Notes under the pieces: generated by a model | The model's database searches: none | Told to the model about the DNA's origin: nothing | The model's input: the letters and a program-made list of their open reading frames with translations, nothing else | Shown here: one piece after another, positions 1-28,535 of the stretch | Layout of the letters: every line of letters starts with the position of its first letter | Position numbering within the stretch: position 1 is the stretch's first letter | Made by a program: the position numbers and the translations under genes | Virus genome (UHGV): UHGV-0260790 | Strand: one strand, 5' to 3' | Length of the DNA: 28,535 nucleotides | Source: a virus

Positions 1-138
1 TCCGAGACGAACGCGAAAGCGTCGGAAACCAGCGCAGAATCCTCAAAAACGGCTGCCGCATCGTCCGCCAGTTCGGCGGCGTCATCGGCATCATCGGCGT
101 CTGCTTCAAAAGATGAGGCGACCAGACAAGCGTCCGCA
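1..138 (+). other. Inverted copy of an internal stf coding segment (wrong strand relative to the gene)
   Basis: Plus-strand frame 1 from nt 1 reads SETNAKASETSAESSKTAAASSASSAASSASSASASKDEATRQASAA, which matches the expected continuation of lambda Stf after the minus-strand gene breaks at nt 139. Confidence 0.75.
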
Positions 139-173
139 GCGCTGGTTTCCGACGCTTTCGCGTTCGTCTCGGA
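1..173. repeat. Fold-back inverted repeat at window start: arm 1-35 is the exact reverse complement of arm 139-173, spacer 36-138; left arm touches the window edge and may extend beyond it
   Basis: Base-by-base comparison: reverse complement of 1-35 (tccgagacgaacgcgaaagcgtcggaaaccagcgc) equals 139-173; pairing fails at 36/138. Confidence 0.9.
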
Positions 174-1252
174 TGTCTTCGCTGCGGAAGCAGACCTCGC
201 TGCTGCGCTGGCCTGTTCAGTGGCTTCGCCAGCCTTCGTTGTGGCTGTTGAAGCAGACGATGCGGCACTTTCTGCCGATTTTCCGGCGGCAGTGGCACTG
301 GCTGAGGCCTGCCCGGCACTTGTTGACGCGGCACTGGCAGATGATGCAGCCGCTGTTTTTGAGCCTGCCGCAGCTGAGGCGCTCTGTCCCGCTGCCGTCT
401 CAGAAGACTTAGCGTTCGTCTCGGACGTTTTTGCCGCCTTCGCGGAATTTCCTGCCGCCGTTGCCGAGGAAGTTGCGCTACTGGCGCTCGAGGATGCGTT
501 CGTTTCTGATAATTTCGCTGCCTCTTTTGAGGCCGCCGCATCCCGGGCTGAGGTGGCAGCTTCTGACGCTTTCGTGGTCGCGGTGGATGCAGAAGTGGCT
601 GCTGATTGTTGTGACGCTGCGGCATTCGTTTCTGACGTTTTCGCGGCACTGGCACTGGTAGCCGCCGCGCTTTTTGAGGACTCTGCAGCGGCAGCACTTT
701 TTGATGCTTCAGTAGCCTTTGTTGATGCCGTTCCTGCGCTGGAAGACGCTGACTGAGCCGACGTCGCGGCCTGCCCGGCTGATGTGCTGGCTGCACGTGC
801 TGAGCCTGCAGCATCAGTCGCATGGGTTGCCGCCTCACGGGCTGATGTGCCGGCATCGCTGGCTGACTTCTTCGCGGCTGCCGTGTTCTGTGCCACCGCG
901 GACGCGTTACGCGCCACCTCTTCCACCATCAGCTCAAAACGGCGCAGTGCCTCCGGACGGGCATCATCCTCCGTCATGGCACCGAGAAAATCATTCAGCG
1001 TACCGGGTCGGGAATCTTCATACACGGTGATGGTCCCGGCATGTGACGGCGGGAATCCTTCCACCAACAGAATAACGCTGTACTGACCGTACTCAACGTC
1101 CATGCTGTAACGCCCGGCTTCATCCGGATTTTCTGAGGCCAGCGTGTTCACCACCACCGTGGTGCTGTTACGTTTTGCTTTCAGCTGGATTGTGCAGTTC
1201 TGTACCGGTTTTCCTGTGCCGTCTTTCAGTACACCTGAAATCTTTACTGCCA
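139..1252 (-). CDS. stf: Side tail fiber protein Stf, N-terminal ~371 codons; native reading frame ends at the fold-back junction at nt 139
   Basis: Minus-strand ATG at 1250-1252 with GGGGTGA-like RBS; translation starts MAVKISGVLKDGTGKPVQNCTIQLKAKRNSTTVVVNTLASENPDEAGRYSMDVEYGQYSVILLVEGFPPSHAGTITVYED, then Ala/Ser-rich KTSETNA repeats typical of lambda Stf; not in the ORF track because no in-window stop. Confidence 0.8.
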
Positions 1253-1264
1253 TATTCACCCCAC

Positions 1265-1290
1265 AAAAAAGCCCGCCTGAACCGGCGGGC
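1265..1290 (-). terminator. Putative intrinsic terminator downstream of lom
   Basis: Minus-strand hairpin GCCCGCC-GGTTCA-GGCGGGC followed by a run of six U; lies between lom stop (1318) and stf start (1252). Confidence 0.55.
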
Positions 1291-1317
1291 TGTCATAACA
1301 CTGTGTTACCTGGCTAA

Positions 1318-1917
1318 TCAGAACTTATAACCGACACCCACGATGAAACCGTCAGTGCGCCAGTCGCCACTGCCGGAGCCTTCATAAGCAATATCAATGG
1401 CCACGGATTCGGTCGGGTTAAACTGCACGCCAGCCCCCCACGCCAGAGACGTGTTGCTGTGGCGACCGTCATCACTTCCGGTCAGCACATCGTGCTTTTT
1501 CCCCTTGTTGTCAGTTACGCGGAGATAATCCCCGGAAAAAGTCGACACACGGCTGTAAGCCACGCCTGCCATCGCATACGCGCTGAACCATTCATTCACG
1601 CGTACAGACGGCCCCGCCATTACGCTGAACCAGCGGTTACGCACGGAATCTTCATGCCAGCGGGTATCGCTGTAACGGGTCAGCTGGCGATTCTTGTCTC
1701 CTGCATAGCTGAACGACGTCACCATCCCCAGTGTGTCCGTAAACTCATAACGGTATTTCACGTTAATCCCGTTCAGATCATCACTGCCGGGAACGTTCGT
1801 CCGGGCATGAAGATACCCCGCGCTCAGCGTGGACTGATGTTCAGACGCCCATGCAGGCGCACCGGATACGGCCAGACAAATGGCTGCGGACAAAATGGCG
1901 GCATAAAGTTTACGCAT
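1318..1917 (-). CDS. lom: Outer membrane protein of the Ail/Lom/PagC family
   Basis: 199 aa ORF with signal peptide and C-terminus AYEGSGSGDWRTDGFIVGVGYKF identical in style to lambda Lom; sits immediately downstream of J as in lambda; N-terminal half diverges from lambda Lom. Confidence 0.85.
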   Translation of the reverse strand: MRKLYAAILSAAICLAVSGAPAWASEHQSTLSAGYLHARTNVPGSDDLNGINVKYRYEFTDTLGMVTSFSYAGDKNRQLTRYSDTRWHEDSVRNRWFSVMAGPSVRVNEWFSAYAMAGVAYSRVSTFSGDYLRVTDNKGKKHDVLTGSDDGRHSNTSLAWGAGVQFNPTESVAIDIAYEGSGSGDWRTDGFIVGVGYKF

Positions 1918-1983
1918 AATTACCTCTCGCTTTTCTGCAATAAAAAAGGCGTCATTTCTGACGCCCGTTCTGGGTTATAAAAT

Positions 1984-5385
<3,402 letters not shown>

Positions 5386-5442
5386 TCACGCTCCATAAAC
5401 GACAAAACCGCCCGCAGGCGGTTTCACATAAAACATTTTTCA

Positions 5443-6114
5443 TCAGCGACCAATCACCACAACCTGACCACCATCACCTTCATCTGCCGTGCTGATCTCC
5501 TGAGATACCACCCGCGACCCCACACGCATTTCACCGTACAGAACGGGCAGGACATTGCCCTGGGCAACCATATTATCCAGTGAAGAAAAATAGGTGTTCT
5601 GTTTGCCGTTATCCGTTGTCTGTGTGCGGGGAGTTCTGGCTTTCGGTGCCAGCATCTGCGCCACACCACCGAGCACCATACTGGCACCGAGAGAAAACAG
5701 GATGCCGGTCATACCACCGGCCCCAATGGCTGCCCCCCATGCTGCAAGGGTGGCTCCGGCGGTAAAGAATGATCCGGCAATGGCGGCAGCCCCCAGGACA
5801 ATCTGGAATACGCCACCTGACTTGGCCCCGGCGACTCTGGGAACAATATGAATCACAGCGCCATCAGGCAGAGTCTCATGTAACTGCGCCGTTAACCCGG
5901 GCGTGCTGACGTCCCGCCCGGCAATGCGCACCTGATACCAGCCCTCATTCAGTTTCTGGCGAAACGACGGAAGCTGCGTGGCCAGCGCCCGGATGGCTTC
6001 AGCCCCCGTTTTCACACGAAGGTCGATGCGGCGGCCAAATCGTTGTAAATCCCCGTAAAGGCAGATGCGTGCCATGCCCGGTGACGCCAGAGGGAGTGTG
6101 TGCGTCGCTGCCAT
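5443..6114 (-). CDS. I: Tail tip assembly protein I
   Basis: 223 aa ORF MAATHTLPLASPGMARICLYGDLQRFGRRIDLRVKTGAEAIRALATQLP, lambda I length and sequence; overlaps K 3' end by 103 nt. Confidence 0.9.
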   Translation of the reverse strand: MAATHTLPLASPGMARICLYGDLQRFGRRIDLRVKTGAEAIRALATQLPSFRQKLNEGWYQVRIAGRDVSTPGLTAQLHETLPDGAVIHIVPRVAGAKSGGVFQIVLGAAAIAGSFFTAGATLAAWGAAIGAGGMTGILFSLGASMVLGGVAQMLAPKARTPRTQTTDNGKQNTYFSSLDNMVAQGNVLPVLYGEMRVGSRVVSQEISTADEGDGGQVVVIGR

Positions 6115-6755
6115 TTGTCTGTATACCTCTCTCGTTTGCTCAGTTGTTCAGGAATATGGTGCAACAGCTCGCCGTCGCCGCAGTAAATGGCGGCATGATT
6201 CGGCACCGATGAACCAAAACAGCACAGCAGCACATCGCCCGGCTGCGCCGCTGACAACGGCACCTGATACAGCCCTGTGGCCTCCAGATTATCCAGATAG
6301 AGATTCTGACCGTGACGCCACCAGTCATCCCCGCGATGAAAATCCGGCATCTCAATTCCCGCCAGATGGTAAGCATCCCGGAACAGCGTGTAACAGTCCG
6401 TCACCCCGTGCTCAAAGCGCCGCCCGGTGAGATGCGGCACACAGCGGAATTTATGAATCGCCCCCCGGCAGACCAGCCACCACGGCAAATCACTCTGCAC
6501 CTGCAGCCGCCGGTCGGCCTCACTCAGCCAGGGCAGACCACCGGGGTGACTGTGGACCAGTGCCACAATCTCACCCTGCATCTCTGCCCGCAGCCAGTCC
6601 TCCGGCGACATCCGGAAATACTCCTCCGGCTCACCGGAGATATTCACGCAGGGAAAATATCTTTCTCCCTCCGGCGTTTTCACCACGAAGCCGCACGACT
6701 CCGCTGGCGCACATCGGCGGGCGTGCGCCAGAATCGCTGATTCTGTCTCTGTCAT
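6012..6755 (-). CDS. K: Tail tip assembly protein K (JAB/MPN plus NlpC/P60-like); long form 247 aa, classical lambda annotation corresponds to internal start at 6611 (199 aa, MSPEDWL...)
   Basis: ORF with HSHPGG (JAMM-like) motif and C-terminus YTDKWQRRTHSLWRHRAWHASAFTGIYNDLAAASTFV; ATG at 6753-6755 just after L stop. Confidence 0.8.
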   Translation of the reverse strand: MTETESAILAHARRCAPAESCGFVVKTPEGERYFPCVNISGEPEEYFRMSPEDWLRAEMQGEIVALVHSHPGGLPWLSEADRRLQVQSDLPWWLVCRGAIHKFRCVPHLTGRRFEHGVTDCYTLFRDAYHLAGIEMPDFHRGDDWWRHGQNLYLDNLEATGLYQVPLSAAQPGDVLLCCFGSSVPNHAAIYCGDGELLHHIPEQLSKRERYTDKWQRRTHSLWRHRAWHASAFTGIYNDLAAASTFV

Positions 6756-6760
6756 GGGAT

Positions 6761-7459
6761 TTACTGCGAAAGTTTGTTAATGGAAAGGAAGCTGCCAAAG
6801 TTGCCGACATTATTGCGAAACTTACAGCCACTCAGGCATTTGCTGCATTTATCCTTCGTGATATCGGACGTCGGCTGGTCATATTCATCCGCGACCGCCG
6901 GACCGCTATAACCGCACTCATCGCCGCGATAGGTCCAGGTGCAGGTGTTGGCCAGCATGATACGTCCCGGAAAAACAGCGCCATCCGTTTCAGTCGGCGT
7001 GGACAGTACAAAAGAGGCACTGACCGCGCTCAGTTCGCTGCACTGCTCGATGCGCCAGCGGCTGATCACCTCCTGCTCCGGATCGGCTTCGCTGTTTCCG
7101 TTGACGAAGTTCACCGCATCCAGAAAGCGGGCGTAAACCTTACGCCGGACCACCGTTCCGCCGACCAGACTCTGCAGATCTTCCGCCATCCCGGTGATCA
7201 TGCCGTGCAGGTTAGAGACCGTCAGTGTCGGACGGGCAGCACTGCCCTTGCCGTTCATCTCAAATCCACTCCCCTGAATGGGATAGGCCTGATACTGCCG
7301 CCCCTGCCAGGTGACCGGCTCACCTTTTTCGTTCTGCTCATTACAGAAAAAATAACGTTCTCCACCGACCTCTGTCAGGTCGATTTCCCAGAGCACCACG
7401 CTGGCCGACTGCTCCGCACGGGTGCATTCATTCAGTGTTTCCTGCCGGATATCCTGCAT
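6761..7459 (-). CDS. L: Tail tip protein L
   Basis: 232 aa ORF MQDIRQETLNECTRAEQSASVVLWEIDLTEVGGERYFFCNEQNEKGEPVTWQGRQYQAYPIQG, lambda L length; start overlaps M stop. Confidence 0.9.
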   Translation of the reverse strand: MQDIRQETLNECTRAEQSASVVLWEIDLTEVGGERYFFCNEQNEKGEPVTWQGRQYQAYPIQGSGFEMNGKGSAARPTLTVSNLHGMITGMAEDLQSLVGGTVVRRKVYARFLDAVNFVNGNSEADPEQEVISRWRIEQCSELSAVSASFVLSTPTETDGAVFPGRIMLANTCTWTYRGDECGYSGPAVADEYDQPTSDITKDKCSKCLSGCKFRNNVGNFGSFLSINKLSQ

Positions 7460-7788
7460 CAGTTCACCACCTGTTCAAACTCTGCGCTGAACTCAACACG
7501 CAGCATACTGACCCGCGACGACCATTTTGCGCAGGTCACCTTTATCTGCCGCCACTCATAAGGCGGCGTCCACAGAAAGGATTTCCAGCCCCCGTGCTCT
7601 TCCAGAAACGACTCCAGTACCGTGGCCTCCTCACGGGGGACAGAAAGCGTCACGCTGTACGTTTTCAGGTTGGCATTCAGCCCGGCAGGCGCTCGCTGGG
7701 AATAGCCATCACCAAAGCGCACCTTTCTTACAGAAGGGACCGAAGCCACATCCATACCGGGTTTCACTTTCCAGCGGAAGGTCTTCAT
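7459..7788 (-). CDS. M: Tail tip protein M
   Basis: 109 aa ORF MKTFRWKVKPGMDVASVPSVRKVRFGDGYSQRAPAGLNANLKTYSVTLS, lambda M length. Confidence 0.9.
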   Translation of the reverse strand: MKTFRWKVKPGMDVASVPSVRKVRFGDGYSQRAPAGLNANLKTYSVTLSVPREEATVLESFLEEHGGWKSFLWTPPYEWRQIKVTCAKWSSRVSMLRVEFSAEFEQVVN

Positions 7789-10346
7789 CGTCCACCTCCG
7801 GAGAACAGGCCACCATCACGCATCTGTGTCTGAATTTCATCACGGGCACCCTTGCGGGCCATGTCATACACCGCCTTCAGAGCAGCCGGACCTATCTGCC
7901 CGTTCGTGCCGTCGTTGTTAATCACCACATGGTTATTCTGCTCAAACGTCCCGGACGCCTGCGACCGACTGTCCGCCATGCTGCCCGGTGTACCGACATA
8001 ACCGCCGGTGGCATAGCCGCGCATCAGCCGGTAAAGATTCCCCACGCCAATCCGGCTGGTTGCCTCCTTCGTGAAGACAAATTCACCACGGTGAACAATC
8101 CCCGCTGGCTCATATTTGCCGCCGGTTCCCGTAAATCCTCCGGTTGCAAAATGGAATTTCGCCGCAGCGGCCTGAATGGCTGTACCGCCTGACGCGGATG
8201 CGCCGCCACCAACAGCCCCGCCAATGGCGCTGCCGATACTCCCGACAATCCCCACCATTGCCTGCTTAAGCAGAATTTCTGTCATCATGGACAGCACGGA
8301 ACGGGTGAAGCTGCGCCAGTTCTGCTCACTGCCGGTCAGCATCGCCGCCATATTCTGTGCAATACCATCAAAGGTCTGCGTGGCTGCACTTTTAACCTGC
8401 GACATACTGTCCGTGGCGCTCTCTTCCCACTCACTCCAGCCGGACTTCAGGCCTGCCATCCAGCTCCCGCGAAGCTGGTCTTCAGCCGCCCAGGTCTTTT
8501 TCTGCTCTGACATGACGTTATTCAGCGCCAGCGGATTATCGCCATACTGTTCCTTCAGGCGCTGTTCCGTGGCTTCCCGTTCTGCCTGCCGGTCAGTCAG
8601 CCCCCGGCTTTTCGCATCAATGGCGGCCCGTTTTGCCCGTTGCTGCTGTGCGAATTTATCCGCCTGCTGCGCCAGCGCGTTCAGGCGCTCCTGATACGTA
8701 ACCTTGTCGCCAAGTGCAGCCAGCTGGCGTTTGTACTCCAGCGTCTCATCTTTATGCGCCAGCAGGGATTTCTCCTGTGCAGACAGCTGGCGACGTTGCG
8801 CCGCCTCCTCCAGTACCGCGAACTGACTCTCCGCCTTCCACAAATCCCGGCGCTGCTGGCTGATTTTCTCATTTGCTCCGGCATGCTTCTCCAGCGTCCG
8901 GAGTTCAGCCTGAAGCGTCAGCAGGGCAGCATGAGCACTGTCTTCCTGACGATCGCCCGCAGACACCTTCACGCCGGACTGTTTCGGCTTTTTCAGCGTC
9001 GCTTCATAATCCTTTTTCGCCGCCGCCATCAGCGTGTTGTAATCCGCCTGCAGGATTTTCCCGTCTTTCAGTGCCTTGTTCAGTTCTTCCTGACGGGCGG
9101 TATATTTCTCCAGCGGCGTCTGCAGCCGTTCGTAAGCCTTCTGCGCCTCTTCGGTATATTTCAGCCGTGACGCTTCGGTATCGCTCTGCTGCTGCGCATT
9201 TTTGTCCTGTTGAGTCTGCTGCTCAGCCTTCTTTCGGGCGGCTTCAAGCGCAAGACGGGCCTTTTCACGATCATCCCAGTAACGCGCCCGCGCTTCATCG
9301 TTAACAAAATAATCATCCTTGCGCAGATTCCAGATGTCGTCTGCTTTCTTAAACGCAGCCTCTGCCTTAATCAGCATCTCCTGCGCGGTATCAGGACGAC
9401 CAATATCCAGCACCGCATCCCACATGGATTTGAATGCCCGCGCTGTCCTGTCTGCCCAGGTCTCCAGCGTGCCCATGTTCTCTTTCAGGCGGCGGGTCTG
9501 GTCATCAAACCCTTTCGTTGCGGCTTCGTTCGCCGCCTGCAATGCCCCGGCTTCATCGCCGGAACGCTGCAACTGAGCAACATACGCAATCTGCTCCGCC
9601 GTCACGTTATGGAACTGGCGCGCCATCGCCGTCAGCCCCGACGTCGGGTCAGTGGTCAGCTTCCCGAAGGCTTCAGCGACCTTGTCCACCTCCACACCGG
9701 ATGCAGAAGAGAAACGCGCCACACTCTGGCTGATGGACGCAATCTGAGCCTCACCGCTTACCCCCGCCTTAACCAGTGCACTGAGTGACTCGCTGGTCTG
9801 GTTAAACGTCAGCCCTGCCGCCTGCCCGGCTCTGGACAGGACCAGCATACGATCTGCCGTCAGACCCGACTGATTACCGGAAAGGACCAGCGTTTTGTTG
9901 AAATCGGACAGGGTTGAGTTACCCTGATACCAGGCATACGCCAGCGCACCGGTCGCCACCGCCAGCGAGGTGGCCCCGACCATCGGCAGGGTGATCGCAC
10001 CGGCAAGCCCCCGGAACATGGGGATCATCCCGCCGAAGGAGTCCTTAACCTGACCACCCTGTTGCAGCAGGATCAGCCACGGGCTTTGCCCGCCTGCAAG
10101 CTGCGTGGCCACGTCAGTGAACTGTGCAGGCAGCATACGCATGGCGGCTTTATACTGCCCGACGGAAATTCCCGCTTTCTGTGCAGCCAGCGCCTGTCGG
10201 CTCAGCGACTGTTCAACGACTGCCGCTGTTTTTTTCGCATCACTTTCCGTACCGGAAAAATGACGCCTGACTCTGGCCATCTGCTCGTCAAATCTGGCCG
10301 CATCCAGACTCAAATCAACGACCAGATCGCCTACCGGTTCAGCCAT
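7785..10346 (-). CDS. H: Tail tape measure protein H
   Basis: 853 aa ORF, lambda H length, MAEPVGDLVVDLSLDAARFDEQMARVRRHFSG, coiled-coil-rich middle, glycine-rich C-terminal region. Confidence 0.95.
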   Translation of the reverse strand: MAEPVGDLVVDLSLDAARFDEQMARVRRHFSGTESDAKKTAAVVEQSLSRQALAAQKAGISVGQYKAAMRMLPAQFTDVATQLAGGQSPWLILLQQGGQVKDSFGGMIPMFRGLAGAITLPMVGATSLAVATGALAYAWYQGNSTLSDFNKTLVLSGNQSGLTADRMLVLSRAGQAAGLTFNQTSESLSALVKAGVSGEAQIASISQSVARFSSASGVEVDKVAEAFGKLTTDPTSGLTAMARQFHNVTAEQIAYVAQLQRSGDEAGALQAANEAATKGFDDQTRRLKENMGTLETWADRTARAFKSMWDAVLDIGRPDTAQEMLIKAEAAFKKADDIWNLRKDDYFVNDEARARYWDDREKARLALEAARKKAEQQTQQDKNAQQQSDTEASRLKYTEEAQKAYERLQTPLEKYTARQEELNKALKDGKILQADYNTLMAAAKKDYEATLKKPKQSGVKVSAGDRQEDSAHAALLTLQAELRTLEKHAGANEKISQQRRDLWKAESQFAVLEEAAQRRQLSAQEKSLLAHKDETLEYKRQLAALGDKVTYQERLNALAQQADKFAQQQRAKRAAIDAKSRGLTDRQAEREATEQRLKEQYGDNPLALNNVMSEQKKTWAAEDQLRGSWMAGLKSGWSEWEESATDSMSQVKSAATQTFDGIAQNMAAMLTGSEQNWRSFTRSVLSMMTEILLKQAMVGIVGSIGSAIGGAVGGGASASGGTAIQAAAAKFHFATGGFTGTGGKYEPAGIVHRGEFVFTKEATSRIGVGNLYRLMRGYATGGYVGTPGSMADSRSQASGTFEQNNHVVINNDGTNGQIGPAALKAVYDMARKGARDEIQTQMRDGGLFSGGGR

Positions 10347-10789
10347 ACCGGACTCCTCCTGCGATCCCTTCTGATACTGTCATCAGCATTACGTCATCCT
10401 CCGTCATGTCCGCCACATCCGGGGAAGCGGGGATAACTTCATTCCCGTCCGGGCCAAAACGAACGCCTCCGGCAAGCCCTGCCGCTTTCTGCATCAGCAC
10501 ATCATCTTCAGGCTCTTCGTCAGCCTCGCGCCGGTTCAGCAGACTGAAATCCAGCGGATGCATATCCGGATCGCTGAAAAACAGGCTGAGCACGGTGTAC
10601 GTCAGCCCGGAAAAGTGCATATCCAGCAGAACATCATGAAAATAATGGGTACTGTAAAAGCGGTGCCAGTCGGCATACTCCGTGGATGACATCCCGGCAA
10701 GCATGGCGCGCCAGTCGGGTCGCCCCATCTCACGCGCCAGTTTCAGGGCAAAACTCAGCTCACCGTCGAACACTTTCCCGCAGAAACAG
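10339..10789 (-). CDS. T: T portion of the G-T tail assembly chaperone, expected only as a G-T fusion via programmed -1 frameshift
   Basis: Frame open downstream of G and overlapping its 3' end; translation ...LSFALKLAREMGRPDWRAMLAGMSSTEYADWHRFYSTHYFHDVLLDMHFSGLTYTVLSLFFSD matches lambda T; stop overlaps H start. Confidence 0.75.
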
Positions 10790-11177
10790 GCTCTGCAGGC
10801 CCGGCGTCCTCTGCCTGTTCAGGGGCATCATTCACCACAAACTCATACATACCGGACAGCCGGTACACCACGTTTTCAGCATGAGAAATTGCCTCTGTAG
10901 GCCAGGTGGTAAGCACTTCCTGCTCAATCTGTTTAACGGCTTCATTCATGGAAGGCATCTGCGTCTTCTGCGGATGGTTATGCCACAGGGACATCGCCAC
11001 CACACAAGCACCGGTTCTGATGGCGTCTTCCACAGTAAACTTCCGGTTGCTGTCTGACTCCGCCTGTTCTGCCTGCCGTTTCATCAGGGCGAGATGCTCA
11101 ATACGCTGCAGGGCTGACAGTTCAGAAAGCGTGACGGTCACACCGTTATGTTCAAATGATTCGGTTTTCAGGAACAT
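10755..11177 (-). CDS. G: Tail assembly chaperone G
   Basis: 140 aa ORF MFLKTESFEHNGVTVTLSELSALQRIEHLALMKRQAEQAESDSNRKFTVEDAIRTGA, lambda G length. Confidence 0.9.
   Translation of the reverse strand: MFLKTESFEHNGVTVTLSELSALQRIEHLALMKRQAEQAESDSNRKFTVEDAIRTGACVVAMSLWHNHPQKTQMPSMNEAVKQIEQEVLTTWPTEAISHAENVVYRLSGMYEFVVNDAPEQAEDAGPAEPVSAGKCSTVS
10783..10789 (-). other. Slippery heptamer GGGAAAG for the G to G-T -1 frameshift
   Basis: Minus-strand GGGAAAG near the 3' end of G, in the G/T frame overlap; same heptamer as lambda. Confidence 0.7.
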
Positions 11178-11192
11178 CGCTGACTCTCCGGA

Positions 11193-11933
11193 TTAACTGG
11201 CGGTGACGTTGATTTCTGCAACCGCAGCAAGTTCACCATTACCGGATACGACCGGAATGTTGACCTTGCCTGCAGCAACACCTTTCACGGTGATGGTCAT
11301 ACCACTGACCGACACGGTGGCTTTTGTTTTATCCGCTGACACCGCACGGAAGCTCTTGTCGGTTGCGCCTTCCGGCTGGAATGCCACGGTCAGCGTGGTG
11401 CTCTGCCCTTTCACCACCGAGGTGCTGGCAGGCATCACGGTCATGCCGGTTGCCGCTGTTACCGTGCTGCGATCTTCTGCCATCGACGGACGTCCCACAT
11501 TGGTGACTTTCACCGTGCGGGTGATCACTTCCTTCGCCGTCACCGCCTTACCGATACTGCTGACCCAGCCACGGAACACATCGACCGTGCCGTTCGGGAA
11601 GCGGATTTTATAGGCACGGGTATCGCCTTCATTAAACCACGCCAGCAGCGCCTGCTGCCCCTGCTCTCCGGGCATCCACGCCAGCGTGAAGCTGGTATCT
11701 CCGGCAGATTTCTGCCCCTGCCCGGTCGCAGTCCAGTCTGCATCTTCATCATCGAGATAGCTGTCGTCATAGGACTCAGCGGTCAGTTCGCCGGGCGTCA
11801 GGTCTTTAACTTTTGCCAGACGCGACCAGTCAACGTCTGAAAGCGGATTCGCATAAGGGTCACCGCTCCCCTTATAAACCCACAGGGTGGTCCCGGCACC
11901 TTTCACCGGCATTGTAGGATTTGGTACAGGCAT
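11193..11933 (-). CDS. V: Major tail tube protein V
   Basis: 246 aa from [45 protein letters not shown]; the ORF-track start at 11963 is an upstream extension; C-terminal Ig-like domain present. Confidence 0.9.
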
Positions 11934-11940
11934 AGCGTCC

Positions 11941-12336
11941 TCACATTTCATAGGTAATGACATAAGTCAGATCGGCTGAACTCCACAGGCCCGCATCATC
12001 GTCGCGCCGGTAGTCATAGCCGCTGGCCACCATACTGGTGATCAAATCTGACAGTGCCGGGATATCGCTCATCACCGGATAAATCCGGGACTCCATCCAC
12101 GCATCCAGCTCTGAATCCGGCACCTGAGCAGGCAGGAAAACTTCGATATGCAGCTCCGCCTGCCAGGTATCGCTGTCCAGCTCTTCGCCCGTGTATTCAG
12201 CGCCGGTGAGATAAACGGCAACTGCCGGAAAATCCGCCTCATCAAAAACAGCGGGGCGACCATCAAAAAACGTCGCCCCGGTGTCATGCTTCTCCAGTGC
12301 ATCCAGTACGGCTGCACGGAGTTCAGTATGTTTCAT
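11941..12336 (-). CDS. U: Tail terminator protein U
   Basis: 131 aa [53 protein letters not shown], lambda U length; ATGA overlap with Z stop. Confidence 0.9.
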
Positions 12337-13089
12337 CGCTTTATTACCATCCTCAGTTGATGCTGCAGCGCATAGCCCAGCTCTTTCGGAAGACGTTCAC
12401 GCCGTATCCGCTCAATATTTTGTTTAAACGCCGTGGTCAGCGGCACCGCCATCGGGATTTTCACCACATCAATGGGGTAACGGTTTTTCCCGGTCCTTTC
12501 GCGCCGCAGGCGTCGTAAAAAGGGGCAGCGTTCATCCCTGAAAGGTGGCGGCAGCGTGCTTGTGGTGGGTAACCGTCGTATTCCCGGCGCGTTTATTCAG
12601 CAACTGAAAAATGGCCGGTGGCATGTCATGCAGCGTGTGGCCGGGAAAAACCGTTACCCCATCGATGTGGTGAAAATCCCGATGGCGGTGCCGCTGACCA
12701 CGGCGTTTAAACAAAATATTGAGCGGATAAATACGACGGTTACCCACCACAAGCACGCTGCCGCCACCTTTCAGGGATGAACGCTGCCCCTTTTTACGAC
12801 GCCTGCGGCGCGAAAGGACAACCCGCGCATTACCCAGCTTGATTACGGGCAAATCCCCCCGGTTAACTTTGATTCTGGCCTGCGGATTTTTGACCGTGGC
12901 CCTTTTCAGCCTGGCCCTTTCCTTTACCAGTTTCCGGCGTACCTTTGTCTCACGGGCAACCTGTGACGCCGACTGCGATATCGCGGATGAAGCAACGCGG
13001 TTAATGGCCATTGCGGCGGCACCAGGCACCGCCGTTTTGCTGATACGGCAGAGGTTTTCAATGGCCTGCTCAAGACCTTTTATGGCCAT
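12333..13089 (-). pseudogene. Z: Tail completion protein Z disrupted by a 178-nt fold-back (inverted duplication) insertion; predicted product has 120 native residues then out-of-frame sequence, stop at 12532
   Basis: Minus ORF 12532-13089 reads MAIKGLEQAIENLCRISKTAVPGAAAM...SVLVVGNRRI then junk YPLNILFKRRGQ...; the next Z residues (PGAFIQQLKNGRWHVMQRVAGKNRYPIDVVKIPMAVPLTTAFKQNIERI) are on the PLUS strand at 12583-12729; the Z C-terminus (NRYPID...[24 protein letters not shown]) resumes on the minus strand at 12493-12336. Joining rc(12730-13089) + 12583-12640 + rc(12333-12493) gives exactly 579 nt, 192 codons plus stop, the length of lambda Z. Confidence 0.85.
12405..12819. repeat. Composite fold-back inside Z: arm P 12405-12493 pairs with P' 12641-12729 (89 nt, 1 mismatch); arm Q 12493-12582 pairs with Q' 12730-12819 (90 nt, exact); unique core 12583-12640. 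Layout P-Q-core-P'-Q'
   Basis: Manual reverse-complement comparison of the listed coordinates; arms share a single nucleotide (12493) at the junction. Confidence 0.9.
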
Positions 13090-13100
13090 ACATCCCCCTT

Positions 13101-13454
13101 TCAGCGGCGACGGTTAACGGCAGGCGGTACGCCCCGCCCAAGCCAGAGATGACAGCTTCCACCATCATCCGGCGAAACCCGGTCTATCCAGAAGTTTTCC
13201 TCACCGATGGTCAGCGTGTCTCCACGCCGCAGCTGCCGCACATCATCAGTCCGGACAAACAGGGACGGGCTGGAGCCTTCAACGCGCACGCCCTGTCCGG
13301 CATAGCTGATATTTTCAGGGTCATCAAAAACACCACGTATTACTGCGCCGGACTGCTCACCGGATGTCATGGTGGCTGACGTTCCCATGTACCCGCGTAT
13401 CGTTTCATCGGCGCGGGCAATGGCAGCATCGAACAGGTTATCGGAATCAGCCAC
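13101..13454 (-). CDS. FII: Head-tail joining (tail attachment) protein FII
   Basis: 117 aa ORF MADSDNLFDAAIARADETIRGYMGTSATMTSGEQSGAVIRGVFDDPENISYAGQGVRVEG, lambda FII length. Confidence 0.9.
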   Translation of the reverse strand: MADSDNLFDAAIARADETIRGYMGTSATMTSGEQSGAVIRGVFDDPENISYAGQGVRVEGSSPSLFVRTDDVRQLRRGDTLTIGEENFWIDRVSPDDGGSCHLWLGRGVPPAVNRRR

Positions 13455-13465
13455 AGCGCCTCCCG

Positions 13466-13861
13466 TTATTGCATTCTGGCCAGGCCATGTTCTGTCATTT
13501 CGGCTGCCACACCGGCAGAGACACGGAACGCCGTTCCCGGCAGCACAAATGCCACAGGCTCATCCCGCGTGGCGTGAAGTGCATCGGTATGCAGCGTCAC
13601 CAGTGCCACAACCGTGACCAGAGCAGCCGTATCAGTCACGGTATCCGTCTGTGCTGATACCACCTCATTTTCATGTCCGGTCAGCGCATTTTCCGGGCTG
13701 ACAGACGAGTCCTGACCGGCTCCGTCATCCGTGTCATCAAGCTCCTCTTCCAGCTCTGCCACACGGAGCGCCAGTTCTTCTTTCGTCCCCGTCAGGCTGA
13801 CATCACGGTTCAGTTGCTCACCCAGCGACCGGAGACGGGCAATCAGTTCATCTTTCGTCAT
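13466..13861 (-). CDS. FI: DNA packaging protein FI
   Basis: 131 aa from MTKDELIARLRSLGEQLNRDVSLTGTKEELALRVAELEEELDD; the ORF-track start at 13900 is an upstream extension. Confidence 0.85.
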   Translation of the reverse strand: MTKDELIARLRSLGEQLNRDVSLTGTKEELALRVAELEEELDDTDDGAGQDSSVSPENALTGHENEVVSAQTDTVTDTAALVTVVALVTLHTDALHATRDEPVAFVLPGTAFRVSAGVAAEMTEHGLARMQ

Positions 13862-13902
13862 GGACTCCTCCACAGAGAGAAAATGGCCCCTAAGGGCCAT
13901 GA

Positions 13903-14928
13903 TTACGCCAGTTGAACGGACACGAACTCATCAGGATCAGCCAGCAGCATCAGCGGTGCTGACTGAATCATGGTGAACTCTCGCGCCGGATCGCCGGATG
14001 TCTTCCAGTTTTTCGGATAACGGGGAGACGCATTAATACCCTCACTCAATGCATCCGCATCCTGAATACAGCCATAGGTGCGCAGACCGCGTGCATGAGT
14101 GTTACCCAGCACCATCGTGTTGTCCGGCAGGAAGTTCTTTTTGACGCCGTTTTCCACGTACTGTCCGGAATACACGACGATGGCCACATCGCCATACATT
14201 CCCTTATAAGACACCGCTTTGCCCAGGTCTTTTACCGCTGTCTCCAGTTCGGAATGAGAGCCGCGACGGGTATCCAGCTTCTCCCTGACGGCTTTGAAGG
14301 AACGGAACAGCGCCCAGCCTTTCGGGTCAAACACGATGATATTCACCACGCCGCTGGCGTTCAGCGCGTAGGCTTCGATATCGTCGGTCGGGTCATACGT
14401 GGACTTGTCACGCTTGCTCCACTCCGTGCCGCCGGACTGCGTGATGTTGTTCGCCGCACTGCGGCCCATATCCACCTCAACCGGATCGAAGGCTTCACCG
14501 GTCATGGTGTATTTGCCCTTGAGCACGGCAGAAACTGCCTGCATCTCTTCGACCTGAGCAATGGCCAGCTCTTCGTCACGCATGTTCTGCATGATGATGC
14601 GACGGCGGCGGTAAGCCGGGTCCGCCAGATTCTGCGGTTCTTCATCCGGCAGGCGACGCAGGGTCATCTGCGGATTCACTTCATGCTTGGGTTTGACATA
14701 TCCCGGCGTAAATTCAGAGGTGGAGCCGCCACGGGAACGGATAACCTCACCGGAAACAATCGGCGAAACGTACAGCGCCATGTTTACCAGTCCCGGAATT
14801 TGTGAGAGATAGACTTTCTCCGTAGTGAAGGGATAGCTCTCACGGAAAAAGAGACGCAGAAACAGCGGATCAAACTTAAATTTCTGCTCATTTGCCGCCA
14901 GCAGCTGGGCGGTTGTGTACATCGACAT
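13903..14928 (-). CDS. E: Major capsid protein E
   Basis: 341 aa from MSMYTTAQLLAANEQKFKFDPLFLRLFFRESYPFTTEKVYLSQIPGLVNMALYVSPIVSGEVIRSRGG; lambda E length. Confidence 0.95.
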   Translation of the reverse strand: MSMYTTAQLLAANEQKFKFDPLFLRLFFRESYPFTTEKVYLSQIPGLVNMALYVSPIVSGEVIRSRGGSTSEFTPGYVKPKHEVNPQMTLRRLPDEEPQNLADPAYRRRRIIMQNMRDEELAIAQVEEMQAVSAVLKGKYTMTGEAFDPVEVDMGRSAANNITQSGGTEWSKRDKSTYDPTDDIEAYALNASGVVNIIVFDPKGWALFRSFKAVREKLDTRRGSHSELETAVKDLGKAVSYKGMYGDVAIVVYSGQYVENGVKKNFLPDNTMVLGNTHARGLRTYGCIQDADALSEGINASPRYPKNWKTSGDPAREFTMIQSAPLMLLADPDEFVSVQLA

Positions 14929-14983
14929 AAAAAAATCCCGTAAAAAAAGCCGCACAGGCGGCCTTTAGTGATGAAGGGTAAAG

Positions 14984-15316
14984 TTAAACGATGCTGATTG
15001 CCGTTCCGGCAAACGCGGTCCGTTTTTTCGTCTCGTCGCTGGCAGCCTCCGGCCAGAGCACATCCTCATAACGGAACGTGCCGGACTTGTAGAACGTCAG
15101 CGTGGTGCTGGTCTGGTCAGCATCAACCGCCAGAATGCCAACGGCAGTACCGTCGGTGGTGCCATCCCACGCAACCAGCTTACGGGTGGAGGTGTCCAGC
15201 ATCAGCGGGGTCATTGCAGGCGCTTTCGCACTCAATCCGCCGGGCGCGGTTGCCGTATGTGCCGGGTCACTGTTGCCCAGCGGCTGGTAATGGGTAAAGG
15301 TTTCTTTGCTCGTCAT
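14984..15316 (-). CDS. D: Capsid decoration protein D
   Basis: 110 aa from [56 protein letters not shown]; lambda D length. Confidence 0.9.
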
Positions 15317-15325
15317 AAACATCCC

Positions 15326-15931
15326 TTACACTGGTGTGTTCAGCAAATCGTTAACGGCATCAGATGCCGGGTTACCTGCAGCCAGTGGTGCCGGTGCCCC
15401 CTGCATCAGACGATCCAGCGCAGTGTCACTGCGCGCCTGTGCACTCTGTGGTGCAGCTGCCAGAATGCGGCGGGCCGTTTCCACGGTCATACCGGGGGTT
15501 TCGGCCAGCACACGTGCCTGTTCTTCGCGTCCGTGAGCTTCCTCACAGTTGAGGATCCCCATAATGCGGCTGTTTTCTGCCGCAACCGCAGCGGTGATCT
15601 GCGCGTTCACGTCCGGCTGCGCCGCGCTGGCGTTTTCGCCCTCCGTCGCTTGCACCACGTCAGTAACGTCAGCCTGCGAAGCAGTGGCTGAAACAGTTGT
15701 TGATTGAGTCTCTTTGGTCATTCGCCCTCCTGAGAGACGGGATTTACGTGCATCCAGTGCATCACGCATAACGGTGATCGCATCGGTGCTGTTGACAAGT
15801 TCATCAGCCAGTCCGGCATCAATGGCCTCCTGACCGCTGTACACTGCAGCCTCGGTATCCAGCACAGCCTGCACGGACAGGCCGGTATATGCCGACACCT
15901 TCTGCGCAAACATCCGGCGGGTTGCATCCAT
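15326..15931 (-). CDS. nu3: Scaffolding protein Nu3, nested in-frame in the 3' third of C
   Basis: Internal Met (MDATRRMFAQKVSAYTGLSVQAVLD...) gives 201 aa sharing the C stop codon, as known for lambda C/Nu3. Confidence 0.7.
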   Translation of the reverse strand: MDATRRMFAQKVSAYTGLSVQAVLDTEAAVYSGQEAIDAGLADELVNSTDAITVMRDALDARKSRLSGGRMTKETQSTTVSATASQADVTDVVQATEGENASAAQPDVNAQITAAVAAENSRIMGILNCEEAHGREEQARVLAETPGMTVETARRILAAAPQSAQARSDTALDRLMQGAPAPLAAGNPASDAVNDLLNTPV

Positions 15932-20326: not shown

Positions 20327-20352
<26 letters not shown>

Positions 20353-20872
20353 TCAGCAACCCCGGTATCAGTTCATCCAGCGCGGCTGCTTTGTTCATGG
20401 CTTTGATGATATCCCGTTTCAGGAAATCAACATGTCGGTTTTCCAGTTCCGGAAAACGCCGCTGCACCGACAGGGGGATCCCGTCGAGAATACTGGCAAT
20501 TTCACCTGCGATCCGCGACAGCACGAAAGTACAGAATGCGGTTTCCACCACTTCAGCGGAGTCTCTGGCATTTTTCAGCTCCTGTGCGTCGGCCTGCGCA
20601 CGCGTAAGTCGATGGCGTTCGTACTCAATAGTCCCTGGCTGGAGATCTGTCTCGCTGGCCTGCCGCAGTTCTTCAACTTCCCGGCGCAGCTTTTCGTTCT
20701 CAATTTCAGCATCCCTTTCGGCATACCATTTTATGACGGCGGCAGAGTCATAAAGCACCTCATTACCCTTGCCACCGCCTCGCAGAACGGGCATTCCCTG
20801 TTCCTGCCAGTTCTGAATGGTACGGATACTCGCACCGAAAATGTCAGCCAGCTGCTTTTTGTTGACTTCCAT
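20327..20872 (-). CDS. nu1: Terminase small subunit Nu1
   Basis: 181 aa ORF MEVNKKQLADIFGASIRTIQNWQEQGMPVLRGGGKGNEVLYDSAAVIKWYAERDAEIENEKLRREVEELRQ; 3' end overlaps A. Confidence 0.95.
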
Positions 20873-21049
20873 TGTTCATTCCACGGACAAAAACAGAGAA
20901 AGGAAACGACAGAGGCCAAAAAGCTCGCTTTCAGCACCTGTCGTTTCCTTTCTTTTCAGAGGGTATTTTAAATAAAAACATTAAGTTATGACGAAGAAGA
21001 ACGGAAACGCCTTAAACCGGAAAATTTTCATAAATAGCGAAAACCCGCG
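20873..21049. other. cosB terminase-binding region (R and IHF sites) between nu1 start and cosN
   Basis: Reverse complement of this stretch matches the remembered lambda left end (…TTTTCCGGTTTAAGGCGTTTCCGTTCTTCTTCGTCATAACTTAATG…) with inverted GGAAACGACAG / CTGTCGTTTCC R-site motifs. Confidence 0.6.
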
Positions 21050-23617: not shown

Positions 23618-23947
23618 TAATTTCCGGCGTTATTTTTAGTTAATTTAAATTAAACCATCGAATTATAGACCCCCCATATTTTAGTTTCTCATTTAATTTG
23701 TGAAGTAGATCTCTATTTTTATCTGAACTTTTTCTATCGAAACCTATTTATGGCTCTTATTTGAACAAAAATAAACCTATTAGCTAATTTATATTAATGG
23801 CTGTTATTTATGGGGGGTCTATAATTCGATGGTTTAATTTAAATTAACTAAAAATAACGCCGGAAATTAGAGCCATAAATAGGTTTCGATAGAAAAAGTT
23901 CAGATAAAAATAGAGATCTACTTCACAAATTAAATGAGAAACTAAAA
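23618..23947. repeat. Composite fold-back in the S-to-porin intergenic region: X 23618-23678 pairs with X' 23809-23869 (61 nt exact); Y 23679-23757 pairs with Y' 23869-23947 (79 nt exact); unique core 23758-23808. Layout X-Y-core-X'-Y'
   Basis: Manual reverse-complement comparison; AT-rich; arms share one nucleotide (23869) at the junction, same topology as the Z fold-back. Confidence 0.9.
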
Positions 23948-24038: not shown

Positions 24039-25121
24039 ATGAAAAAATTAACAGTGGCAATTTCTGCTGTAGCTGCATCAGTACTGATGGCGATGTCTGC
24101 TCAGGCAGCTGAAATTTATAATAAAGACAGTAACAAGCTGGATCTGTACGGGAAAGTTAATGCTAAGCACTACTTCTCCTCTAATGATGCAGATGATGGT
24201 GATACTACTTATGCCCGTCTTGGCTTCAAAGGTGAAACCCAAATCAACGATCAACTGACTGGTTTCGGTCAGTGGGAATATGAATTCAAAGGCAACCGCG
24301 CTGAATCTCAAGGTTCCTCCAAAGATAAAACCCGTCTTGCCTTCGCTGGCCTGAAATTCGGTGACTACGGCTCCATCGATTACGGCCGTAACTACGGTGT
24401 AGCATACGACATCGGTGCGTGGACTGACGTCCTGCCAGAATTCGGTGGTGACACTTGGACTCAAACAGATGTGTTCATGACTGGTCGCACCACTGGTGTT
24501 GCAACTTATCGTAACAACGACTTCTTTGGTCTGGTTGATGGTCTGAACTTTGCTGCTCAGTATCAGGGTAAAAATGACCGCACTGACGTAACTGAAGCTA
24601 ATGGTGATGGTTTCGGTTTCTCCACTACTTATGAGTATGAAGGATTCGGTGTAGGTGCAACCTATGCTAAATCTGATCGCACTAATAATCAGGTTATCTA
24701 CGGTAACAACGGTCTGAATGCTTCTGGTCAAAATGCTGAAGTATGGGCAGCTGGTCTGAAATATGATGCGAACAACATCTATCTGGCCACCACCTATTCT
24801 GAAACCCAGAACATGACTGTTTTTGGTAATAACCATATTGCCAACAAAGCACAAAACTTCGAAGCTGTTGCACAATATCAGTTCGACTTCGGCCTGCGTC
24901 CATCCGTTGCTTACCTGCATTCTAAAGGAAAAGACTTGGGTGTTTGGGGTGATCAGGACCTGGTTGAATATGTTGATGTAGGTGCAACCTATTACTTCAA
25001 CAAAAATATGTCCACTTTTGTTGACTACAAAATCAACCTGATTGATAAGAGCGATTTCACGAAAGCATCTGGCGTTGCTACCGATGATATCGTTGCTGTA
25101 GGTATGGTTTACCAGTTCTAA
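24039..25121 (+). CDS. nmpC: Outer membrane porin, OmpC/OmpF/NmpC family, prophage-encoded moron
   Basis: 360 aa ORF with signal peptide [23 protein letters not shown], mature N-terminus [18 protein letters not shown]-terminal ...VAVGMVYQF; AAGGG RBS; opposite strand to Q/S/R as for nmpC in DLP12. Confidence 0.9.
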
Positions 25122-28146: not shown

Positions 28147-28535
28147 ATACCACGGGGTGGCTATGTGTTTCTCATTGTTAATTGGAATCTACTGTAATCG
28201 ATCCGAACGTAAATGCGGCAAAACTCGACTCCACTTATCATCCTGCCACGGCCGGAATTTTACATGTGCCGTCGGCACAGTTGGTGTGGCGGCCTCAGTC
28301 CGGAACAATTTGAAAACAAGAACCTCGCTTAGGCCTGTGTCCATATTACGTGGGTAGGATCAAATATCCCCAGATACTCAATAAGGCACAGGCAATCCTT
28401 GCCAGAGAAACGGCACATGTAAAATTCCGGCCGTGGCAGGATGATAAGTGGAGTCGAGTTTTGCCGCATTTACGTTCGGATCGATTACAGTAGATTCCAA
28501 TTAACAATGAGAAACACATAGCCACCCCGTGGTAT
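28147..28535. repeat. Perfect 126-nt inverted repeat: arm 28147-28272 pairs with arm 28410-28535, spacer 28273-28409; right arm ends exactly at the window edge and may extend beyond it
   Basis: Reverse complement of 28410-28535 equals 28147-28272 at every position checked; pairing fails at 28273/28409. Confidence 0.9.

What the first reader, a model, noticed from the sequence alone, without database searches (positions are those of the whole stretch)
12405..12819. Tail gene Z broken by an inverted-duplication fold-back that exactly reconstructs to lambda-length Z
Z codons 1-120 are native on the minus strand, codons 91-177 are present on the plus strand, and codons 146-192 resume on the minus strand. 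The extra 178 nt are the inverted copies of two flanking segments. Removing the fold-back (rc 12730-13089, then 12583-12640, then rc 12333-12493) gives a 579-nt ORF, the length of lambda Z. As written, the gene yields a 185-aa product with 65 out-of-frame residues. Z is needed for infectious tails, so this prophage copy is predicted to be defective in particle infectivity even though every other structural gene is intact.
Basis: partly seen in the sequence, partly recalled or inferred. Interest (0 to 1): 0.7.

Follow-up and report, generated by a model that had tools for sequence, protein, structure and literature searches.

The report
Flipped-segment artefact breaking lambda tail gene Z
The phage tail gene Z really is interrupted in this sequence by a 237-base flipped stretch, but three more flips of the same kind occur in the contig, two of them at its very ends, and identical prophages elsewhere have an intact Z, so this is almost certainly an error in how the sequence was built.

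Summary
Window 12405-12819 has two interleaved inverted repeats (89 nt with 1 mismatch, and 90 nt at 100%). Undoing the flip gives a 579-nt, 192-aa Z. That Z is nucleotide-identical to Z in other E. coli prophages, 2 aa from lambda Z, and full length against Pfam PF06763.

The biological reading, a prophage defective in infectivity, is not supported, for five reasons.
- The same architecture (native A-c-B' written as A + rc(A-c-B') + B') occurs four times in 28.5 kb: at Z, at 23618-23947, and cut off exactly at both window ends (1-173 and 28147-28535).
- Draft contigs of the same prophage match the window with 0 mismatches over 15,186 nt outside the flips and have a collinear Z.
- None of 5,426 complete E. 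coli genomes carries any of the flips. The tested Z junction is absent from three public contig collections.
- The six junctions show no more microhomology than random blunt joins. That argues against polymerase template switching, in the cell or in MDA.
- The flipped Z block carries a private SNP.

Best explanation: short pieces of 141-263 nt were placed in the wrong orientation with their overlaps kept, by mis-assembly or chimeric reads. A real rearrangement is not excluded (about 0.1). Read mapping or PCR would settle it.

The parts
12730..13089 (-). Z codons 1-120, native orientation (5' part of the gene)
   Evidence: Pfam PF06763 positions 1-120
12493..12729 (+). 237-nt flipped block: Z nt 271-507 (codons 91-169) written on the wrong strand
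   Evidence: blastn against L001, L003 and others: inverted, 1 mismatch
12405..12493 (.). Arm A (native copy), pairs with A' at 12641-12729
   Evidence: the repeat finder I2: 89 nt, 99%
12641..12729 (.). Arm A' (copy inside the flipped block). It carries a private SNP at 12663.
   Evidence: The SNP is absent from 26 held Z copies, and none of 5,907 places in E. coli genomes matches the block at 100%.
12493..12582 (.). Arm B (copy inside the flipped block), pairs with B' at 12730-12819
   Evidence: the repeat finder I1: 90 nt, 100%
12730..12819 (.). Arm B' (native copy, Z codons 91-120)
12583..12640 (+). 58-nt spacer c (Z nt 361-418), present only in inverted orientation
12333..12493 (-). Z nt 419-579 (3' part plus stop), native orientation, overlapping the start of U
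12532..13089 (-). ORF as written: 185 aa, made of 120 native residues plus 65 antisense-derived residues
   Evidence: The product is not on record in the gene-position index.
1..173 (.). Left-terminal flip. Bases 1-141 are the reverse complement of native tail-fibre gene sequence. Arms are 1-35 and 139-173. The window starts exactly at the start of the arm.
23618..23947 (.). Second internal flip with the same architecture. The block 23679-23869 (191 nt) is inverted. Arms are 23618-23678/23809-23869 and 23679-23762/23864-23947. It lies in the AT-rich intergenic region upstream of the porin gene.
   Evidence: It is absent from 2,317 genomes that are collinear there.
28147..28535 (.). Right-terminal flip. 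28273-28535 is rc[A (126 nt) + 47 nt + the first 90 nt of an IS3 end]. Arms are 28147-28272 and 28410-28535. The window ends exactly at the end of the arm.

Best explanation
The break in Z most likely comes from how this sequence record was produced, not from the prophage itself.

Four short stretches (141, 237, 191 and 263 nt) are written in reverse-complement orientation. Two lie between correctly oriented longer stretches and two lie at the ends. The longer stretches overlap the short ones by 35-126 nt, and these overlaps were kept rather than merged. That automatically produces the interleaved inverted repeats (A B C A' B').

The most likely cause is a homology-independent joining error: small pieces or reads placed in the wrong orientation during assembly, scaffolding or gap closing, or an equivalent in-silico step. 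Chimeric library molecules are a second possibility.

The true source DNA very probably has a collinear, intact 192-aa tail completion protein Z.

Shown: the anatomy, the recurrence, the coincidence with the contig ends, the intact state in identical relatives, and the junction statistics. Inferred: that the cause is technical, and which step introduced it.
For: (1) Recurrence. blastn of the window against relatives, and a whole-window repeat scan, find the same architecture at 1-173, 12405-12819, 23618-23947 and 28147-28535.

(2) Both window ends coincide to the base with the ends of repeat arms. The right-terminal block ends 90 nt inside an IS3 copy, which is where a short-read contig would naturally stop.

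(3) Contig DADCZT010000043.1 (L003) is 100.000% identical to the window over 12,355 + 2,831 nt and has an intact 192-aa Z. L004, L008 and L010 show the same intact Z at 0-1 mismatch.

(4) No complete E. coli genome has the flips. The best coverage is 80% with a record span of 1,023 = 1,201 - 178 nt, and 3,094 genomes have a place covering at least 80% of the Z-region query, the most any collinear copy can reach. Site 3 behaves likewise in 2,317 genomes. All hits start at about 139-144 and stop at 28272. The phage collection also lacks the flip.

(5) The tested Z junction (A'|B', J2) is absent from viral, genome and metagenome contig collections, and the 185-aa product is not on record.

(6) Junction microhomology is 3, 1, 0, 0, 1 and 0 nt. 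This matches random blunt joins: P(0) = 0.56, P(1) = 0.28, P(>=2) = 0.16.

(7) The flipped Z block carries one SNP seen in no relative, while 15,186 flanking nt have none. That is expected if the block is an independent, lower-quality piece.
Against: No reads or assembly metadata are available, so the artefact is inferred rather than demonstrated. The overlaps are not a constant k-1 (35, 61, 78-84, 89, 90, 126 nt), so no single de Bruijn graph parameter explains them, and I cannot name the tool or step responsible. Each internal flip needs two novel junctions, which a single chimeric read does not supply. A real mutation of the four-point '3-1-4-2' type has exactly this geometry (PMC5453318).
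Confidence: 0.82

Rival explanations
1. The rearrangement is genuine in the source strain. A replication template switch to the opposite strand and back (four-point model type 3-1-4-2), or an inversion by staggered breaks, flipped 237 nt of Z and duplicated its flanks. This would give a Z-null prophage that makes normal-looking but poorly infectious particles.
For: [quoted passage not shown] The one SNP in the copied block could reflect error-prone repair synthesis. Loss of gpZ gives normal-looking virions with much lower infectivity (PMC11784142). A prophage gene can decay without cost to the host.
Against: It would require four independent events in 28.5 kb of one strain, against none in thousands of related prophages. 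Two of the events fall exactly at the contig termini. The flanks are 0/15,186 nt diverged from isolates with an intact Z, so all events would have to be extremely recent. There is no microhomology at the switch points. Type 3-1-4-2 is the rarest in vivo class, 1% of events, and the copied fragments here (191-237 nt) are long for a model that was devised for short switch events (my reading of PMC5453318).
Confidence: 0.1
2. The flips are wet-lab chimeras made by a strand-displacing polymerase (phi29 multiple displacement amplification or similar) and then assembled into the consensus. This is still an artefact, but one of real molecules rather than of software.
For: 85% of MDA chimeras are inverted joins, mostly between segments less than 10 kb apart (PMC1855051). 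All six junctions here are inverted joins, with re-entry points 106-148 nt away. Several events per contig are expected in amplified DNA.
Against: 93.5% of proximal inverted MDA junctions show at least 2 nt of complementarity. Here only 1 of 6 does, giving P = 7e-6. Each internal site needs two switches on one molecule, and that molecule would have to dominate coverage.
Confidence: 0.12
3. The block is a programmed invertible segment (a Gin/Cin/Pin-type or fim-type switch) caught in one orientation.
For: One flip lies in a tail-fibre gene, where invertase-driven switches are known in Mu, P1 and e14 (from general knowledge).
Against: The native sequence has no flanking inverted repeats. In the Z region of L003 there are only imperfect matches (74-92% complementary) of up to 19 nt, none at the breakpoints. 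The long repeats exist only as a consequence of the flip. The inverted state is absent from all relatives. Flipping destroys the Z reading frame.
Confidence: 0.01

Closest known systems
Bacteriophage lambda gpZ, the prototype tail completion protein (Pfam PF06763 Minor_tail_Z)
   Same: The repaired ORF is 192 aa and 2 aa different from lambda Z. It lies between FII and U and matches the full profile.
   Different: As written, only residues 1-120 are native. The rest is antisense-derived.
Short template-switch mutations, four-point model type '3-1-4-2' (Loytynoja & Goldman 2017, PMC5453318)
   Same: The geometry is identical: the fragment copied in reverse complement overlaps both the leaving point and the return point, giving two inverted repeats around an inverted spacer.
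   Different: There are four events in one 28.5-kb contig, two of them at the contig ends. No microhomology is seen. The copied fragments of 141-263 nt are long for a model that was devised for short switch events. There is no evidence that the events exist in the DNA.
Inverted chimeras of multiple displacement amplification (Lasken & Stockwell 2007, PMC1855051)
   Same: These are inverted joins between nearby segments, with several per stretch of sequence.
   Different: The junctions lack the 2-21 nt complementarity seen in more than 90% of proximal MDA chimeras. The internal sites need paired junctions.
Local mis-assembly: a small contig or read placed in the wrong orientation with overlaps left unmerged (from general knowledge of assembly errors; no specific tool identified)
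   Same: This accounts for blunt joins, read-sized flipped pieces, retained overlaps, flips at contig termini, and an independent SNP in one piece.
   Different: The variable overlap lengths fit no single k. I could not tie the pattern to a documented assembler behaviour.

Membership tests
Lambda gpZ / Pfam PF06763 Minor_tail_Z (tail completion protein) | Full-length match to the family profile above the gathering score | tested here: met
   Repaired ORF: 274.4 bits, positions 1-190/190. ORF as written: only 1-120/190, so the written gene is a truncated member.
Lambda gpZ / Pfam PF06763 Minor_tail_Z (tail completion protein) | Position between FII (head-tail joining) and U (tail terminator) in a lambda-like morphogenesis operon | tested here: met
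   The ORF order in the window matches the annotation of lambda J02459 and of the F8704-2 prophage.
Lambda gpZ / Pfam PF06763 Minor_tail_Z (tail completion protein) | Near-identity to lambda Z in sequence and length (192 aa) | tested here: met
   The repaired ORF differs from lambda Z by 3 nt and 2 aa, and from F8704-2 Z by 0 nt.
In vivo template-switch mutation (four-point model, type 3-1-4-2) | A middle fragment copied in reverse complement that overlaps both switch points 1 and 4 | tested here: met
   The switch points fall in the order 3 < 1 < 4 < 2 along the reference at Z and at site 3.
In vivo template-switch mutation (four-point model, type 3-1-4-2) | The event is present in the organism's DNA (heritable, seen in reads or in related isolates) | not testable with these tools
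   No reads are available. Indirectly, the event is absent from all relatives and public collections searched.
MDA inverted chimera | Inverted join between segments less than 10 kb apart | tested here: met
   All six junctions are inverted, with re-entry points 106-148 nt away.
MDA inverted chimera | At least 2 nt of complementarity at the priming site (93.5% of proximal inverted chimeras) | tested here: not met
   Microhomology is 3, 1, 0, 0, 1 and 0 nt. P(at most 1 of 6) = 7e-6 at p = 0.935.
Site-specific invertible segment (Gin/Cin/Pin-like) | Pre-existing inverted crossover sites flanking the segment in the native sequence | tested here: not met
   The native Z region of L003 has only imperfect inverted matches (74-92% complementary) of up to 19 nt, none at the breakpoints.
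Site-specific invertible segment (Gin/Cin/Pin-like) | Both orientations found among related genomes | tested here: not met
   Only the collinear orientation was found: 3,094 genomes have a place covering at least 80% of the Z-region query and 2,317 do at site 3.

The most novel reading that the evidence does not exclude
The flips are real. One E. coli lineage would have undergone a burst of short, homology-independent 'flip with retained flanks' rearrangements (3-1-4-2-type double template switches or staggered-break inversions) concentrated in a lambdoid prophage. One of them inactivated the tail completion gene Z. This would point to an undescribed local rearrangement process in bacteria.
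Probability: 0.07. Interest if true: 0.55.

Novelty: not a real feature. Interest (0 to 1): 0.08.

Why it matters
If taken at face value, the finding would label an apparently complete lambdoid prophage as defective and would report a rare type of rearrangement. The evidence instead marks this contig as carrying systematic orientation errors. In practice, Z here should be treated as intact. The other flips should not be interpreted biologically either: the tail-fibre gene end, the region upstream of the porin gene, and the IS3 junction. Other contigs from the same source should be screened for interleaved inverted repeats of about 35-130 nt with spacers of about 100-150 nt.

Tried and rejected
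- **Looking for the source or a second occurrence.** I scanned viral, genome and metagenome contig collections for the Z junction A'|B' and for the lineage-specific IS3 junction. All six scans found nothing. Exact-protein look-ups of the 185-aa product and of the 44-aa C-terminal ORF found only unrelated short contigs truncated in Z.
- **Paralogue hypothesis.** I tested whether the flipped block came from a second Z allele in the same genome. The block's SNP is in none of 26 held copies, and no place in E. coli genomes matches the block at 100%. The idea is not supported.
- **De Bruijn graph explanations.** I considered a constant k-1 overlap and 2k-1 bubbles. The right arm of 126 nt and the Z arms of 89 and 90 nt are suggestive, but 35, 61 and 78 nt do not fit, and the SNP is not central in the block. 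Rejected as a complete explanation.
- **Other sequencing artefacts.** Missed-adapter or long-read fold-back reads would give zero-loop palindromes, not 100-150-nt single-copy spacers. Rejected.
- **Quasipalindrome-mediated spacer inversion.** The native sequence has a 10-nt imperfect inverted repeat near the inner breakpoints, but such matches are common by chance (6 in 1 kb), and this mechanism gives no flank duplication. Rejected.
- **Failed fetches.** Fetching NZ_CP061223.1 failed because it is not in the collection. The PDB sequence search for Z found nothing.

Full report
**1. What is in the sequence.**
The region 12405-12819 contains two interleaved inverted repeats. Arm A (12405-12493) pairs with A' (12641-12729): 89 nt with 1 mismatch. 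Arm B (12493-12582) pairs with B' (12730-12819): 90 nt at 100%. Each pair has 147 nt between its arms. Read on the + strand, the order is A B C A' B'. This equals A + rc(A c B') + B': a 237-nt native stretch is present as its reverse complement, and 89 and 90 nt of its two ends are also kept outside it in native orientation. That adds 178 nt.

The minus-strand ORF as written (12532-13089) encodes 185 aa, of which 120 are native and 65 are translated from antisense Z sequence.

It is identical at every nucleotide to Z of the E. coli O39:NM F8704-2 prophage, and it differs from lambda Z by 3 nt and 2 aa. It matches Pfam PF06763 Minor_tail_Z over 1-190/190, while the written ORF matches only 1-120.

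The flipped copy holds codons 91-169, and native 3' sequence resumes at nt 419.

**2. The same thing happens elsewhere in the window.**
Aligning the whole window to a related prophage (L001) showed two further inverted pieces, at 23679-23869 and 1-141. A whole-window inverted-repeat scan then gave four sites with the same architecture:
- 1-35 / 139-173
- the Z site
- 23618-23678 / 23809-23869 together with 23679-23762 / 23864-23947
- 28147-28272 / 28410-28535

The first and last sites are cut off exactly by the window ends, to the base. The window therefore behaves like a whole contig whose termini are flipped pieces.

The right-terminal block (28273-28535) is the reverse complement of 126 nt (arm A) + 47 nt + the first 90 nt of an IS3 end. 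An IS3 copy is exactly where a short-read contig would be expected to stop. The flipped pieces are 141, 237, 191 and 263 nt long. The retained overlaps are 35, 89/90, 61/78-84 and 126 nt. The re-entry distances are 106-148 nt.

**3. Relatives.**
The window's J protein is found exactly on a small set of draft contigs. One of them, DADCZT010000043.1 (L003), is 100.000% identical to the window over 139-12493 and 12730-15560, that is 0 mismatches in 15,186 nt. It carries an intact, collinear 192-aa Z. L004, L008 (an independent MEGAHIT metagenome contig) and L010 show the same intact Z, with 0-1 mismatch to the window.

Among 5,426 complete E. coli genomes:
- 3,094 have a place covering at least 80% of the Z-region query. 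That is the most a collinear copy can reach, and the listed best hits span 1,201 - 178 nt in the record.
- 2,317 do so at site 3.
- Every listed long alignment starts at about 139-144 and ends at 28272.

The 108 matching phage records behave the same way. The tested Z junction (A'|B') is absent from the viral, genome and metagenome contig collections. The 185-aa product is not on record in the gene-position index.

**4. Junction anatomy.**
I used the native sequences (L003, L001 and the IS3 copy in L032) to measure microhomology at the six novel junctions. The values are 3 nt (left end), 1 and 0 nt (Z), 0 and 1 nt (site 3, where a 5-of-6 imperfect match is also possible) and 0 nt (right end).

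Random blunt joins give P(0) = 0.56, P(1) = 0.28 and P(>=2) = 0.16, which fits the observed values well. By contrast, 93.5% of proximal inverted MDA chimeras have at least 2 nt of complementarity (PMC1855051). At most 1 of 6 such junctions has probability 7e-6 under that rate. The joins therefore look homology-independent. This argues against polymerase template switching, whether in vitro or in the cell.

The flipped Z block also carries a transition at 12663. It is seen in none of 26 held Z copies, and no place among 5,907 in E. coli genomes matches the block at 100%. The 15 kb of flanks have no difference at all from L003. This is what an independent, lower-quality piece would show, and it is not expected from a recent copy of the same molecule.

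**5. Interpretation.**
The simplest account of all four sites is that short pieces, of read or small-contig size, were placed in the wrong orientation between or at the end of longer pieces they overlap, and the overlaps were left unmerged. This explains:
- the blunt joins
- the interleaved repeats
- the flips at both termini
- the IS3-bounded end
- the private SNP

I cannot identify the tool or step responsible. The overlaps fit no single k, and chimeric library molecules remain possible. I give 'artefact of sequence construction' a probability of about 0.82.

The geometry is the same as the in vivo '3-1-4-2' template-switch type, which creates two inverted repeats around an inverted spacer (PMC5453318). 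But that is the rarest class, at 1% of events, and the model was devised for short events. A real origin would need four simultaneous, very recent events in one strain, two of them coinciding with the contig ends, and none with microhomology. I give it about 0.1.

A programmed invertible segment is excluded. The native sequence has no flanking crossover repeats, and only one orientation exists in relatives.

**6. Consequences.**
Lambda gpZ is the prototype tail completion protein, and its loss gives normal-looking virions with much lower infectivity (PMC11784142). The premature stop 196 nt upstream of U could also disturb Z-U translational coupling; this is my inference. As things stand, Z should be regarded as intact and the finding filed as a sequence-quality flag. 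Read mapping or a single PCR across FII-U would settle it.

Noticed in passing
window 28273-28362 (inverted), next to 28363-28409: The first 90 nt of an IS3 end (TGATCCTACCCACGTAATATGG...) abut the 3' part of a P22AR C-terminal-domain (antirepressor-like) gene. This points to a lineage-specific IS3 insertion. It is absent at this site from all 5,426 complete E. coli genomes and from three contig collections.
   Followed up: partly
window 23618-23947: The second internal flip lies in the AT-rich intergenic region between the holin gene (essD-like) and the prophage porin gene (24039-25121, 360 aa, OmpC/NmpC-like). If taken literally, it would rearrange the porin's upstream region.
   Followed up: partly
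window 1-173: The contig starts inside the side tail-fibre gene (stf-like, 1,075 aa in L003) with a 141-nt flipped piece. In sister assemblies the contig runs on through stf into host genes (ompT side).
   Followed up: partly
window 20897-20953: There is a natural 25-nt imperfect hairpin (84% complementary, 7-nt loop) just beyond the Nu1 gene start (ORF 20327-20872, minus strand). It is unrelated to the flips and was not examined further.
   Followed up: no
repaired Z protein (192 aa): A sequence search of all PDB chains found no solved structure for a gpZ homologue. This agrees with a 2024 paper stating that gpZ is detected in lambda tails but not localised in the tail structures (PMC11784142).
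   Followed up: partly
L003 2816-2825 / 2899-2908 (native Z; equivalent to window about 12736-12745 and 12475-12484): A 10-nt imperfect inverted repeat (GGGTAACCGT / ACCGTTACCC) lies 6-9 nt outside the two inner breakpoints of the Z flip. It is probably chance: six such pairs occur in 1 kb.
   Followed up: partly
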